Notes: generated by a model from the sequence alone, not told the origin. A stretch of 64,000 bases of DNA from Thermoanaerobaculia bacterium (GCA_963719225.1 CAVRAY010000002.1:416001-480000); one strand, 5' to 3'. Positions 17,863 to 22,770 are shown, numbered from the stretch's first letter. Translations and numbers: made by a program.

Positions 17863-19343
17863 TGTCGTAGCTCCATGAAAGTGTCCCCTCGATAACTCGA
17901 TAGAAGTGTCCCCTCGTAAAGAAGGGGGCGCGATGGAGGAGATCGTGGGGCTGAGCACGAAGGAGAGAGCGCGGCTGGTGGAGCTCGAGCAGGTGAAGGC
18001 CGGGCGTCAGACGGTCGTGGCGGCTGCCGAGCGGCTTCAGATGAGCGGGCGGCAGGGCAAGAGGATCTGGAAGAGATACCGCGCCGAGGGCGCCAAGGGA
18101 CTGGTGCATCGCTCGCGAGGACGGCCGTCGAATCGGAAGTTGGACCCTGAGAGCAAGCAGCAGAGTCTCGAGCTCTGCCGGACGCGGCTGGAAGGTTTTG
18201 GGCCGACACTGGCGGCCGAGAAGCTTCTCGAGGTGGGGCTGAGGGTTTCTCACGAGACGTTGCGGCGGTGGCTGATGGTAGAGGGGCTGTGGAAGAAGAA
18301 AAGGAAACGAGGGCCGCACCGCAGGTGGAGGCCGCCGAAGGAGCACTTCGGCGAGCTCGTTCAGATGGACGGAAGCTTCCACGACTGGCTCGAGACGGGC
18401 CACAAGCCATGCCTGATCGACCTCGTCGACGACGCCACGGCGAAGATGGGAGGCGAATTCTTCGAGCAGGAGACCACCGAAGGAGCGATGAGGGTGCTGT
18501 GGCGGTGGATCGAGCTTTACGGGATCCCCAAGGCGCTTTACACCGACCACAAGAATCTCTACGTGGCTGATCGCGAGCCGACGAAAGACGAGCAGCTCTT
18601 AGGCCGGCCTGCACTGACGGCCTTCGGCAAGGCCTGCCACAAGCTCTCGATTCAGATCATTCCCGCAGCCAGCCCTCAGGCCAAGGGCAGGATCGAGCGG
18701 CGGCACGGCGTGCTTCAGGACCGGCTCGTCAAGGAGTTCAGGCTGCATGGCATCAAGGACCTCCAGGCGGCCAACGCCCTTCTGAGAGGAGGATTCCTCG
18801 AGACGATCAATCAGAGATTCGCGCACAGCTCGGCTAGCCGAGTCGACTACCACCGACCCGTGCCCAAGCGCCTACGGCTCGAGGATGTTTTCGTCTTCGA
18901 AGAGCAGCGCACCGTGCAGAACGACTGGACGGTCGCCTGGGACGGCCGCTGGTTCCAGATTACCGGGCCCAAGTCTCAGATGCCGCGCCGCCGCGAGAAG
19001 ATCGTGGTTCGCCACAGGCTTGATGGCAGTCGGGTGCTGCTTCACTACCATCGAGCCCTCGAGTTTCACGAAATCAAAAACCGGCCGCCTCGGCCGGCGC
19101 CACTGATCAAGCCGGCCTCCGTGGCAACACGCCGCCCTTTCAAAGCGCCCTCTGATGTTCACCCCTGGAGAACACCATTAACCGCCGCAAGCGTCCAGGC
19201 TTCATGGGAGCGCAAGGAGCGCGCCGGCCTCCGATGAGGCCGGCCTCCCGTTTTCCACATTTCCACCGCGCGACGACTACGACGACCAAAAGGGGACATT
19301 TCTAACGAGCTCTACGAGGGGACACTTCTAAGGAGCTTTGACA
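17863..19343 (+). mobile_element. IS1202-family (ISNCY) insertion sequence, 1481 bp, 16-bp target duplication
   Basis: TGT...ACA ends; imperfect IRs with two internal copies of AAGTGTCCCCTCG at the left end and related copies at the right. GGCCCGCCCGGCGGGG is duplicated at 17847-17862 and 19344-19359. Confidence 0.9.
17933..19237 (+). CDS. ISNCY/IS1202-type DDE transposase
   Basis: HTH N-terminus; FGPTLAAEKL, GELVQMDGSFHDW, DDAT, YTD and PQAKGRIER motifs. Confidence 0.93.
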   Translation: MEEIVGLSTKERARLVELEQVKAGRQTVVAAAERLQMSGRQGKRIWKRYRAEGAKGLVHRSRGRPSNRKLDPESKQQSLELCRTRLEGFGPTLAAEKLLEVGLRVSHETLRRWLMVEGLWKKKRKRGPHRRWRPPKEHFGELVQMDGSFHDWLETGHKPCLIDLVDDATAKMGGEFFEQETTEGAMRVLWRWIELYGIPKALYTDHKNLYVADREPTKDEQLLGRPALTAFGKACHKLSIQIIPAASPQAKGRIERRHGVLQDRLVKEFRLHGIKDLQAANALLRGGFLETINQRFAHSSASRVDYHRPVPKRLRLEDVFVFEEQRTVQNDWTVAWDGRWFQITGPKSQMPRRREKIVVRHRLDGSRVLLHYHRALEFHEIKNRPPRPAPLIKPASVATRRPFKAPSDVHPWRTPLTAASVQASWERKERAGLR

Positions 19344-19970: not shown

Positions 19971-20140
19971 CGTCGTCCTCCTTTTCGTTCGCCCGGCAGC
20001 TTTCTTCCGCGGCCGTCCGGGGCTTCCGTCAAGAGCTAAGCGGCATTTCCGGCCCGAATGGCTCACGCGCGCGGGCCTGGAGGCGAACGCCTGCCGTGCG
20101 GGCCTCCCCGGAATGTCGGGTAAACTCGATTCCTGACCAG

Positions 20141-21451
20141 ATGAGGATTCTCGTCGTCGGCTCCGGGGGTCGCGAGCACGCGCTCGTGTGGAAGCTCGCG
20201 CAGGCGCCGGGCGTCACGGACGTCTTCGCGGCGCCGGGCAACCCGGGCATGGCGAACAAGGCGACGTGCATTCCGATCGGGGTCGAGAACGTCGTCGAGC
20301 TGGCGGACTTCGCCGAGTCGATGAAGATCGACCTGACCGTCGTCGGACCCGAGCTTCCGCTCACGCTCGGCCTCGTGGACGAGCTCACCAACCGCGGCCT
20401 CACCGCGTTCGGCCCGAACCGCCTCGCGGCGGAGCTCGAAGGCTCGAAGGTCTTCTCGAAGCTCTTCATGAAGAAATACGGCATCCCGACGCCGGACGCC
20501 GAGGTGTGCCAGACGCGGGGCGAGGCGGAGCGCGCCCTCAAGTCGTACGGCCTCCCGTGCGTCTTCAAGGCGGACGGCCTCGCGGCCGGAAAGGGCGTCG
20601 TTGTGGCGCAGGAGGCCGAGGAGGCTGAGCGCGCGCTGAAGCTCTTCTTCGAGGATCGCGTCTTCGGCTCGGCTGGCGACCGCGTTCTCGTGGAACGGTT
20701 CATCGCGGGAGACGAGGTGAGCTTCATGGTCCTTTGCGACGGGGAGCACGCGCTGCCGCTCGCGACCGCGATGGACTACAAGAAGATCTTCGACGGCGAG
20801 CGCGGTCCGAACACGGGCGGAATGGGCGCGCACAGTCCTTCGGTGCTCCTCGACGCGTCCACGGCGTCCGACGTGCTCGCGTTCATCGTGCAGCCGACGC
20901 TCAAGGGAATGGCCGACGAGGGCCGCCCGTTCCGCGGCGTCCTCTTCGTCGGTCTCATCCTCGAGGCCGGACTGAACCCGTACGTGCTCGAATACAACGT
21001 GAGGTTCGGAGATCCCGAGACGCAGGCGGTGCTCCTGCGCATGGACGACAACCTGCTGCCGCTTCTCCTGGGATCGGCACGCGGAAAATTCGACGAAGGG
21101 GCGCAGCTCGGATGGCGGCGCGAGGCGACCGCCGCCCTCGTCATGACGGCCGAGGGCTATCCCGGGCCCTTCGAGCGCGGTCGCGCCATTTCCGGAATCG
21201 AGGACGCCGAGGCGATGGACGGCGTCTTCGTCTTCCATGCGGGGACGGCCCGGGGTCCCGACGACGGCCTGGTGACGTCGGGCGGCCGCGTTCTCGACGT
21301 CTGCGCCCGCGGGCGCGGCCTCTCGCAGGCGCTCGCGAGGGCGAAGGAAGCGGCGGGCAAGATCCGTTTCGAAGGCGCCCATTTCCGGCGCGACATCGGG
21401 AAGAAGGCCCTCGAGATCCTCGTGGAGCGCTCCGGCTCCATGCTCAGATGA
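20141..21451 (+). CDS. purD: phosphoribosylamine--glycine ligase
   Basis: MRILVVGSGGREHAL, VVGPE, KADGLAAGKGV, GPNTGGMGA and YNVRFGDPETQ. Confidence 0.97.
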   Translation: MRILVVGSGGREHALVWKLAQAPGVTDVFAAPGNPGMANKATCIPIGVENVVELADFAESMKIDLTVVGPELPLTLGLVDELTNRGLTAFGPNRLAAELEGSKVFSKLFMKKYGIPTPDAEVCQTRGEAERALKSYGLPCVFKADGLAAGKGVVVAQEAEEAERALKLFFEDRVFGSAGDRVLVERFIAGDEVSFMVLCDGEHALPLATAMDYKKIFDGERGPNTGGMGAHSPSVLLDASTASDVLAFIVQPTLKGMADEGRPFRGVLFVGLILEAGLNPYVLEYNVRFGDPETQAVLLRMDDNLLPLLLGSARGKFDEGAQLGWRREATAALVMTAEGYPGPFERGRAISGIEDAEAMDGVFVFHAGTARGPDDGLVTSGGRVLDVCARGRGLSQALARAKEAAGKIRFEGAHFRRDIGKKALEILVERSGSMLR

Positions 21452-22181
21452 AATCGACGAGAACCGGCGGTGGACCCGGGGCGTCGAGGAGCGCGAAGGC
21501 AGCCTCGAGGATCCGGGTCTGCAGCGCGGCATCGCCCGGCTTCCCGAGCGGATACCCGAGCGCGTAAGGCACCGCGAGAGCGCGAGGCGTTCGCACCTTC
21601 TCGGTGACCTCCTTGAGCATCGTGACGGACGTCGTCGCGATGCCGCGCCTCTCGAGCTCGCCCGCGATCAGACCGACGGTCTGGTGGCACATGGGTCAAA
21701 GCGGGACGAGGAACGCCGCGTCGACGCCGTCCGCCGCGAGGAGCGCGGCGGCCGCTGGCGCCGTTTCCTTCACGAGCCGCCCGGGCGCCGTGATCGAGCC
21801 CATGAAGGAGAGGGCGCGGCCGTTCAGCGAGCCGATCTCTCCCTTCGCCACCATCTCGCGCAGCCTCTCGAGCGGAAAGCCGAGATTGCGGTCCGCCCGA
21901 AACCCGCTCTGGTCGAACGCGTCGGATTTGTGCGCGATTCCGAGCGTCGCAACCTCCGCGTCCGCCGGGATCTCGCGGAACGACACGTCGCAGCCCTTCA
22001 ACTCTTCGGTGTCGAACGGAACCTGCGACGGCAGGTGAACGCCCCCCGTCGTCACGAGCGCGACGCGCGCCTCGTGAAGCGGTTTCGCAAGCCTCGTGAA
22101 CGGCACGGGATCGAGCGCACGGTACCGGTACATCGCCATGAAGAGCCGGTTCTTGCGCGACAGGTCCGAAAGGCTCGCCAT
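21444..22181 (-). CDS. glycine/sarcosine/betaine/proline reductase selenoprotein B family protein (PrdB/GrdB-like), Sec at TGA 21696-21698
   Basis: ORFs 21696-22214 and 21444-21692 are in the same frame, joined by TGA: FLVPL-U-PMCHQTVGLIAGELERRGIAT. N-terminal KPL..ARVALVTTGG and FPL motifs; SECIS-like hairpin follows. Confidence 0.85.
21660..21698 (-). promoter_or_regulatory. bacterial SECIS element candidate
   Basis: UGA, 12 nt, then CAGACC-GUC-GGUCUG (21683-21669) with G first in the loop; possible CCC/GGG lower stem. Confidence 0.7.
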
Positions 22182-22212
22182 GCCCTCAGTATGACGAAAT
22201 ATGATCGCGCCC

Positions 22213-22770
22213 ATGCACGTTCCCGCCGTCCTCGCGCTTCTCGCCCAGCTCGTCTCGTCGCACGCCGCGCCTTCCGCCGCGGCCTCGACTCCGGCGCCCG
22301 TCTATCCCGTGACATCGGGCGGCGGCCTGACATGGGCCGTGCCGAAGACCTGGGTGCCGGGACCCTCCTCCGCGATGAGGCTCGCGACGTACTTTCTCCC
22401 CGCGTCTGCGGGCGACGCCGAGAGGCCGGAGATGGCCGTCTTCTGGTTCGGGCCGGGAAAGGGCGGGACCGTCGACGCGAACGTGGAGCGCTGGTTCTCG
22501 CAGTTCGCCGCATCTCCCGGCGACCCGAGGCCGACGCGCAGCCTCACGCGGATCGGCTCGCTGCCCGTCACGCTCGTGAAAGCGGCGGGAACGTTTTCCG
22601 CAGGCGCCGGGATGGGCGCCTCGTCCGCGGCGAAGAGCGGCTTTGCGCTCCGCGGCGCGATCGCCGAGGGCCCGAACGGAGCCGTGTTCTTCAAGCTCAC
22701 CGGCCCGCGGCGAAGCGTGGCGGCCGCCGGAAAGGACTTCGACGCCCTCGTCGCGAGCCTCAAGCCCTGA
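22213..22770 (+). CDS. hypothetical secreted protein
   Basis: Signal peptide; GGTVDANVERWFSQF and FFKLTGP look like conserved motifs. TATGAT 7 nt before the ATG. Confidence 0.7.
   Translation: MHVPAVLALLAQLVSSHAAPSAAASTPAPVYPVTSGGGLTWAVPKTWVPGPSSAMRLATYFLPASAGDAERPEMAVFWFGPGKGGTVDANVERWFSQFAASPGDPRPTRSLTRIGSLPVTLVKAAGTFSAGAGMGASSAAKSGFALRGAIAEGPNGAVFFKLTGPRRSVAAAGKDFDALVASLKP

What the first reader, a model, noticed from the sequence alone, without database searches (positions are those of the whole stretch)
21444..22181. Hidden selenoprotein: stand-alone PrdB/GrdB-like UxxC protein recoded at TGA
Seen: two adjacent ORFs are one reading frame, ...CCG CTT TGA CCC ATG TGC CAC CAG..., giving U-P-M-C. 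A CAGACC-GUC-GGUCUG hairpin lies 12 nt after the UGA, in bacterial SECIS position. Established: GrdB carries a UxxC active site followed by a segment like E..GI.T, and clostridial Grd/Prd reductases need partner subunits (GrdA/C/D/E, PrdA). None of those is nearby; the neighbours are purD and a hypothetical secreted protein. Inference: an orphan ~245-aa selenoenzyme with a different, unknown redox role, implying selA/B/C/D elsewhere in the genome.
Basis: partly seen in the sequence, partly recalled or inferred. Interest (0 to 1): 0.78.

Follow-up and report, generated by a model that had tools for sequence, protein, structure and literature searches.

The report
Lone PrdB-like selenoprotein gene, partnerless
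Two short reading frames are one gene whose internal UGA is predicted to be read as selenocysteine, giving a lone relative of proline reductase subunit B that likely acts as a small redox enzyme; the gene call is sound, but such genes have been catalogued since 2005 and this is an ordinary member.

Summary
Observation confirmed, on the minus strand: 22181-21444 is one 245-codon frame with UGA at codon 162 (U-P-M-C). The genome has selA, selB, selD and tRNA-Sec. The hairpin matches the bacterial SECIS model, shares its GUC loop and spacing with the genome's own selD and formate dehydrogenase genes, covaries across 54 sequences, and is present behind 54 of 55 UGA but 0 of 14 Cys codons. It is PrdB-sized (32% to true PrdB) but below the PrdB/GrdB cut-offs; PrdA/GrdE, GrdA, PrdC and proline racemase were not found, with working controls, so it is not a proline or glycine reductase. 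Orthologues are widespread in Acidobacteriota and have no conserved neighbour. Best reading (about 50%): a stand-alone selenol/thiol reductant, by analogy with a paralogous clade that sits behind a 1-Cys/1-Sec peroxiredoxin in 14 of 15 loci; this clade itself shows no such link. Environmental Sec 'PrdB' sequences have been counted in print since 2005, and this scan has reported the family, and the peroxiredoxin pair, several times on other DNA. New member of a known kind; function untested.

The parts
21444..22181 (-). Gene for a 245-aa PrdB-like (PF07355) protein with predicted Sec162 and Cys165 (UxxC)
   Evidence: translation; families; homologues; model, pLDDT 95.8
21696..21698 (-). In-frame UGA, codon 162, predicted selenocysteine
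   Evidence: TGA in 25 of 33 related loci and TGC/TGT in 8; 78 of 80 metagenome orthologues TGA, 2 Cys
21687..21689 (-). Cys165 codon, second residue of the UxxC motif
   Evidence: Cys in 64 of 65 rows of alignment A3
21669..21683 (-). SECIS apical hairpin CAGACC-GUC-GGUCUG, loop G at +18
   Evidence: (90.3% of cells paired, 6 of 8 pairs with two-sided changes)
22188..22193 (-). CATACT hexamer 6 nt before the start codon: likely -10 element of a leaderless transcript (inferred)
   Evidence: 16 of 25 close orthologues match [TC]ANNNT at 5-8 nt (background 3.2%); 8 of the other 9 have GATACT there
20096..21451 (+). purD, convergent neighbour; not part of the system
   Evidence: GARS_N/A/C domains
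22213..22770 (+). Divergent hypothetical gene with a signal-peptide-like N-terminus (by eye), preceded by TATGAT at 22200-22205; not shown to be functionally linked
   Evidence: no family

Best explanation
The two frames are one gene whose UGA is predicted to be decoded as selenocysteine, and the 245-residue product likely works alone, without PrdA or GrdE, as a selenol/thiol oxidoreductase that would reduce an oxidised protein or small-molecule thiol. Shown by sequence and calls: one conserved frame across the UGA, a covarying SECIS, Sec machinery, no detectable Prd/Grd partner, no conserved neighbour. Predicted: an alpha/beta domain with U162-x-x-C165 at the start of a helix that follows a beta strand. 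Inferred mechanism: the Sec162 selenolate attacks a disulfide, mixed disulfide or sulfenic acid on the target; Cys165 resolves the adduct to a Sec-Cys selenenylsulfide, which the cell's thioredoxin- or glutaredoxin-type system would recycle. The target of this clade is not identified; peroxide defence is the most likely context. Confidence is about 0.97 for the selenoprotein gene call and about 0.5 for this function.
For: Gene call: selA 443 bits over cut-off 268, selB (13), selD with its own in-frame TGA (14), tRNA-Sec (8). Of the top 120 database homologues, 105 end at the UGA position, 14 have CxxC and 1 CxxG. All 42 class rows at E<=1.4e-59 and all 35 phylum rows at E<=5.2e-56 carry an in-frame TGA. 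SECIS. No partner: PF09338 in 0 of 151 class genomes but in 3 of 3 control plasmids; GrdA in 0 of 16 genomes, control rings; PrdC not found, control rings; racemase not found. PrdB needs pyruvoyl-PrdA to reduce proline (PMC11229817, passages). Redox role: UxxC position in the model. A paralogous PrdA-less clade lies directly behind a peroxiredoxin in 14 of 15 loci from 7 families, both genes with TGA in 7. That peroxiredoxin has no conserved second Cys, and 12 of its 120 best homologues are about 250-aa fusions of the glutaredoxin type, so the PrdB-like gene sits where its reductant sits elsewhere. Other paralogues lie beside CMD/AhpD-like (2 loci, one genus) or MsrB (4 loci, one genus) genes. 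The genome also encodes candidate Sec peroxiredoxin and OsmC-like proteins.
Against: The peroxiredoxin link belongs to another clade (35-37% identity; separate in the tree). That peroxiredoxin was beside 0 of 84 orthologue loci (many only +/-1.5 kb, some duplicated) and 0 of 80 metagenome loci, and was not found at E<=1e-38 in G000 or 16 other genomes of its family. Orthologue neighbours are unrelated to each other. No thioredoxin-fold match appeared; the best structural hits are generic (Z<=9.3). Many wider-family members lack one or both Cys/Sec (SxxC, GxxC, GxxS etc.), so the fold is not always a dithiol redox enzyme. Long forms sit in catabolic clusters. The characterised relatives break C-N bonds, not disulfides. 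No expression or biochemical data.
Confidence: 0.5

Rival explanations
1. It keeps the chemistry of PrdB/GrdB: Sec162 attacks an already activated carbon (onium compound such as a betaine or sulfonium, or a haloacetate), forms a selenoether, and Cys165 releases the reduced product. Such a substrate needs no pyruvoyl subunit.
For: Full-length homology to PrdB, 32% over 234 aa. Many non-Cys residues around the predicted core are conserved (P27, F56, D65, R69, D97, N99, P103, M127, G128), which may mark a substrate pocket. A GrdB-like protein is proposed to cleave fluoroacetate without a Schiff base (PMC10838667, abstract and passages). Long relatives lie in catabolic clusters with acyl-CoA dehydrogenase, MmgE/PrpD, aldehyde dehydrogenase or TauD genes.
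Against: The fluoroacetate enzyme keeps a GrdE-like partner and GrdA; none was found here. No transporter or catabolic gene recurs beside the orthologues.
Confidence: 0.25
2. U162/C165 bind or move a metal, metalloid, sulfur or selenium rather than cycling as a reductant.
For: The top Foldseek row by probability was a dihydroxyacid dehydratase homologue (prob 0.89, TM 0.33, E 0.017), whose Cys motif binds an Fe-S cluster (recalled); a metallopeptidase, MlrC, scored Z 8.8. A relative lies next to selO on a plasmid.
Against: Profile comparison with the genome's own IlvD-like protein: probability 0.2%, E 0.35. Only two Cys/Sec are conserved. The Z-scores are at background level.
Confidence: 0.13
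3. It is the Sec subunit of a proline/glycine-type reductase whose activating partner is encoded elsewhere and was missed, or is an unrelated protein.
For: The genome is an assembly, 97.19% complete. An unrelated partner could not be seen by these searches.
Against: PF09338 in 0 of 151 class genomes, 83 of which carry a homologue, with a control that rings. PrdA, PrdD, PrdE, PrdF and the PrdH-type protein give no tblastn hit below E 0.4. True PrdB forms its own clade.
Confidence: 0.1
4. The UGA is a real stop: a broken gene, or two separately translated proteins of 161 and 82 aa.
For: An ATG follows two codons after the UGA; the hairpin region is not unusually stable; no read-through peptide has been observed.
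Against: The UGA is fixed at the catalytic Cys position across a phylum, the hairpin tracks UGA and not Cys codons (54/55 vs 0/14), one-piece Cys orthologues exist, and both halves fold as one domain.
Confidence: 0.02

Closest known systems
D-proline reductase selenoprotein PrdB (NCBIfam TIGR04483; C. difficile, PMC11229817)
   Same: Size (245 vs 241 aa), 31-34% identity over nearly the whole length, Sec in UxxC at the equivalent position.
   Different: 126 bits against a cut-off of 300; separate clade; PrdA, PrdH-type, PrdC and racemase genes not found; conserved N-terminal helix and P-U-P motif instead of AG-U-GT.
Environmental 'proline reductase PrdB' UxxC selenoprotein family (PMC1088965: 42 Sec sequences, Sargasso Sea; PMC2398784: 235, GOS; PMC1794560: listed in Anaeromyxobacter and Geobacter)
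   Same: pfam07355, UxxC, found outside clostridia, predicted from UGA/Cys pairs.
   Different: Those papers (passages seen) label them proline reductase; the passages do not discuss a missing PrdA. I did not compare their sequences with this clade.
Glycine/sarcosine/betaine reductase selenoprotein B (GrdB/GrdF/GrdH; PF07355, TIGR01917/TIGR01918)
   Same: Homologous to the C-terminal half (model positions about 200-415); Sec followed by Cys three residues on.
   Different: Lacks the N-terminal ~200 aa and the third Cys of UxxCxxC; 41-49 bits, below all cut-offs; GrdE and GrdA not found.
   Same: Same PrdA-less fold family; present in the same class, sometimes in the same genome.
   Different: 35-37% identity, different motif spacing (C/U-x-x-x-C), different clade, and this gene has no peroxiredoxin neighbour.

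Membership tests
Bacterial selenoprotein (UGA-Sec) | In-frame UGA aligned to Cys in homologues, with conserved coding sequence on both sides | tested here: met
Bacterial selenoprotein (UGA-Sec) | bSECIS: 3-9-nt loop with G in the first two places, 4-16-bp stem, 16-37 nt from UGA (PMC13188914) | tested here: met
   GUC loop, 6 bp, 18 nt; covariation; energy -19.9 for 59 nt, -6.7 for the apical stem alone
Bacterial selenoprotein (UGA-Sec) | selA, selB, selD and tRNA-Sec in the genome | tested here: met
Bacterial selenoprotein (UGA-Sec) | Selenium found in the protein | not testable with these tools
   needs 75Se labelling or MS
Pfam PF07355 (GRDB) | Score above gathering threshold 22 | tested here: met
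   36.9 bits, model positions 200-345 of 347
D-proline reductase PrdB (TIGR04483) | Score above cut-off 300 | tested here: not met
   126 bits
D-proline reductase PrdB (TIGR04483) | Pyruvoyl proprotein PrdA (PF09338) in the genome | tested here: not met
   0 in G000, 3 of 3 control plasmids ring; tblastn negative; 0 of 151 class genomes
D-proline reductase PrdB (TIGR04483) | Accessory PrdC and proline racemase | tested here: not met
   control rings; control rings
D-proline reductase PrdB (TIGR04483) | D-proline reduction to 5-aminovalerate | not testable with these tools
   enzyme assay needed
GrdB/GrdF/GrdH | About 435 aa, UxxCxxC, score above TIGR01918 cut-off 65.45 | tested here: not met
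   245 aa, UPMCHQT, 42.4 bits
GrdB/GrdF/GrdH | GrdE and GrdA partners | tested here: not met
   (control rings)
Environmental 'PrdB' UxxC selenoproteins (Zhang et al. 2005, 2008) | pfam07355 with UxxC, outside clostridia | tested here: met
Environmental 'PrdB' UxxC selenoproteins (Zhang et al. 2005, 2008) | Same clade as the published Sargasso/GOS sequences | not tested
   those sequences were not fetched; supplements not read
Peroxiredoxin-linked PrdB-like clade | 1-Cys/1-Sec peroxiredoxin gene directly upstream; membership of that clade | tested here: not met
   0 of 84 and 0 of 80 loci; separate clade
UGSC selenoprotein family (NF041046 / PF24696) | Profile match | tested here: not met
   not listed; one distant relative hits PF24696 weakly, 19.8 bits
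Thioredoxin-fold redoxins | Thioredoxin fold | tested here: inconclusive
   none among the listed rows; best rows are LacI-type, MlrC and SDR folds at Z 7-9.3

The most novel reading that the evidence does not exclude
PrdA-less PrdB-like proteins are an unrecognised class of selenium 'redoxins' on a non-thioredoxin scaffold with no solved structure: they recycle peroxidases and other oxidised thiols across much of Acidobacteriota and beyond, most database and metagenome 'proline reductase PrdB' labels outside Firmicutes are wrong, and the Stickland B subunits are one specialised branch of this family.
Probability: 0.35. Interest if true: 0.65.

Novelty: new member of a known kind. Interest (0 to 1): 0.27.

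Why it matters
For this genome it corrects a split gene and a misleading label: the organism should not be credited with proline reduction. For the field, one of the most abundant environmental selenoprotein families (235 Sec sequences in GOS) has no demonstrated function and no solved structure. This 245-aa single-domain, single-copy member with natural Cys orthologues is a convenient test object, but nothing about this locus sets it apart from thousands of relatives.

Tried and rejected
Fused partner domains: the longer-protein search found nothing (weak evidence); 30 longer representatives showed only sporadic fusions (AMP-binding, HTH_3, VTT). Conserved neighbours: none across families in 42 orthologue loci (judged by eye; one locus gave no gene calls), and the largest shared cluster was 4 of 51 metagenome loci. 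Solved relatives: none by sequence or by Foldseek at E<=0.001; VIA-align gave only generic alpha/beta/alpha folds, which does not show the fold is new. IlvD-like Fe-S motif rejected. UGSC family not found in the genome (one search had no ringing control). Co-occurrence with the AhpE-type peroxiredoxin: not supported for this clade. Sigma-70 scan found no promoter. Tree rooting with GrdB is a quick, unfinished tree with a long branch, so no order of events is claimed; the 65-row tree is also quick only. No complex prediction and no protein-language-model look-alike search is available for this report. One selenoprotein candidate (C1:2923112) was scanned in the wrong frame and stays unchecked.

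Full report
1. Observation. The feature lies on the minus strand. Table 11 breaks it into a 161-aa and an 82-aa ORF; with TGA read as Sec, 22181..21447 gives one 245-aa protein with U162-P-M-C165. The hairpin CAGACC-GUC-GGUCUG starts 12 nt after the UGA. Contigs of other sequencing runs span the codon with every difference elsewhere (X1 record 4, X4 record 20). The neighbours are purD and a divergent gene without family match. Close relatives are titled Thermoanaerobaculia/Acidobacteriota.

2. The UGA is predicted to be Sec. The genome (4.75 Mb, 97.19% complete, 6.21% contamination) has selA, selB, selD with its own in-frame TGA, and tRNA-Sec; selA is in 149 of 151 class genomes. Of 1,754 database homologues the best 120 were listed: 105 end at the UGA position, 14 have CxxC, 1 CxxG. 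At DNA level 25 of 33 loci have TGA and 8 TGC/TGT; 78 of 80 metagenome orthologues have TGA; all 42 class rows at E<=1.4e-59 and all 35 phylum rows at E<=5.2e-56 have an in-frame TGA. The hairpin fits the consensus model in PMC13188914 (passages). G at +18 with a stem of at least 5 bp is found in 54 of 55 distinct TGA windows and 0 of 14 Cys windows (three Firmicutes prdB windows left out, duplicates merged), in 76 of 78 against 0 of 2 metagenome loci, and in 26 of 26 phylum loci. In 54 aligned windows 90.3% of cells pair, 6 of 8 pairs show two-sided changes, and all slid controls fall below 42% (the structure came from the window's own sequence and kin are not independent). The genome's selD and formate dehydrogenase-like genes carry the same GUC loop at +17 and +19; 31 of 92,147 TGA triplets do. 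Against: the 59-nt fold is not more stable than shuffles (z 0.43).

3. What family. Pfam PF07355 passes (36.9 bits, C-terminal part of the model). NCBIfam PrdB scores 126 of 300, the GrdB-type models 41-49 bits, all below cut-off. Identity to annotated PrdB is 31-34%. In the finished 42-row tree the window's clade (14 rows, 98/95) is apart from true PrdB (3 rows, 100/100); Cys forms fall inside the Sec clade. The family is large: 2,099 clusters at 50% identity, 83 of 151 class genomes and 67 of 251 phylum genomes. G000 holds one copy. These class and phylum tallies include G004, which is flagged unpublished; it adds one genome to each denominator and one selA hit.

4. No partners. PF09338 (PrdA/GrdE) was not found in G000 or 150 other class genomes, while the same search rings in three control plasmids. 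PrdA, D, E, F and the PrdH-type protein give no tblastn hit below E 0.4. GrdA: 0 of 16 genomes, control rings. PrdC and proline racemase: not found, controls ring. PMC11229817 (abstract and passages) shows that proline reduction needs pyruvoyl-PrdA, matured by PrdH, together with Sec-PrdB. So this protein cannot be filed as a proline or glycine reductase subunit. Flanking genes are shared among close kin, but no neighbour recurs across families. A conserved hexamer 6 nt before the start suggests a leaderless, single-gene transcript (inferred).

5. Structure. AlphaFold2 on a 65-row alignment gives one confident domain (pLDDT 95.8, pTM 0.94) with U162 at the start of helix 163-178 after strand 155-159, the place where CxxC redox motifs usually sit (established knowledge, recalled). 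No solved relative was found by sequence or Foldseek; VIA-align lists generic alpha/beta/alpha folds, Z up to 9.3. The IlvD resemblance failed a profile test.

6. Function. The only strong contextual clue in the family comes from a paralogous clade. It follows a peroxiredoxin on the same strand in 14 of 15 loci among 401 phylum genomes; the fifteenth is at a contig edge. The peroxiredoxin has no conserved second Cys, and 12 of its 120 best homologues are longer fusions, the one scanned carrying a glutaredoxin domain; one source names a homologue mycoredoxin-dependent. The 1-Cys peroxiredoxin AhpE is reduced through mycoredoxin-1 (PMC8113037, passages). I infer that the PrdA-less fold can serve as a peroxidase reductant. 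The transfer to this gene is weak: 0 of 84 and 0 of 80 orthologue loci have that peroxiredoxin, none was found at E<=1e-38 in G000 or its family (G000 has a more distant 41% homologue elsewhere), and many family members lack the Cys pair. I put a selenol/thiol reductant role at 0.5, PrdB-like C-X cleavage of a pre-activated substrate at 0.25, metal/sulfur handling at 0.13, an unseen partner at 0.1 and a real stop at 0.02.

7. Prior knowledge. Sec 'proline reductase PrdB' with UxxC was counted 42 times in the Sargasso Sea (PMC1088965, passages), 235 times in GOS (PMC2398784, passages), in Anaeromyxobacter and Geobacter (PMC1794560, passages), five times in a worm symbiont (PMC1976440, passages) and in 110 organisms (PMC5029168, one passage). 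I found no paper giving a function for PrdA-less members: 'PrdB-like'+'selenoprotein' 0 papers; 'GrdB-like/GrdB homolog/PrdB homolog/PF07355' 4 (one read in passages); five-term peroxiredoxin/operon search 5 (listing; four of them seen only in passages found with other terms); as listings. BSepDB's main text does not name the family. No supplements were read; they and subscription journals may hold such a description. This scan has already reported a close look-alike and the family and peroxiredoxin pair on other genomes; I had found the pair before that look-up, and those notes are not counted as support.

8. Verdict. A correct, well-supported call of a hidden selenoprotein gene; a new member of a widespread, long-catalogued family whose function is open. 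Interest 0.27.

Noticed in passing
L074:5925-7180, L129:5165-6421, L155-L168: Conserved two-gene unit: 1-Cys/1-Sec peroxiredoxin directly upstream of a PrdB-like paralogue; 14 of 15 phylum loci, both genes with TGA in 7; adjacent in 22 of 24 family-f5 genomes that have the peroxiredoxin. This clade is sister to true PrdB in the tree without GrdB (98/94).
   Followed up: yes
window 22188-22213: Back-to-back -10-like hexamers (CATACT on minus, TATGAT on plus), 6-7 nt before the two divergent start codons: likely a compact bidirectional leaderless promoter; xATACT is kept in 24 of 25 close orthologues.
   Followed up: partly
G000 C1:116472(+), C1:2228558(+), C1:2923112(-), C1:736134(-), C1:3642345(-): Other in-frame TGA genes of the genome: a BCP/PrxQ-type peroxiredoxin, an OsmC-like protein, a redoxin-like candidate (unchecked), a formate dehydrogenase-like gene (motif recognised from memory) and selD.
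   Followed up: partly
L126-L128, L135-L149: Paralogues in other Acidobacteriota classes lack the first Cys/Sec (SxxC, ExxS) or the second (CxxS); some genomes hold a Sec copy and an SxxC copy about 4 kb apart (L126); one has two TGAs in UxxU (L130).
   Followed up: partly
L029-L039, L072, L073, L088: Long forms (380-420 aa) with a C-terminal extension that has no Pfam match; Cys in Halieaceae, Sec in family f14; beside TauD/VTT genes or acyl-CoA dehydrogenase, MmgE/PrpD and aldehyde dehydrogenase genes.
   Followed up: partly
L130, L132, L258: A 96-aa protein without family match (motif 'RYVRLHxGDG') lies directly upstream of one Sec paralogue clade in three genomes.
   Followed up: partly
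window 17906-19237: 443-aa ORF with N-terminal HTH domains, transposase-like by appearance, between the methionine-synthesis genes and purD.
   Followed up: no
G000 C2:217541-222743 and C2:609793-615051: Two tRNA-Pro(tgg) plus tmRNA pairs in inverted orientation on one contig; a duplication or an assembly mixture (contamination estimate 6.21%).
   Followed up: no
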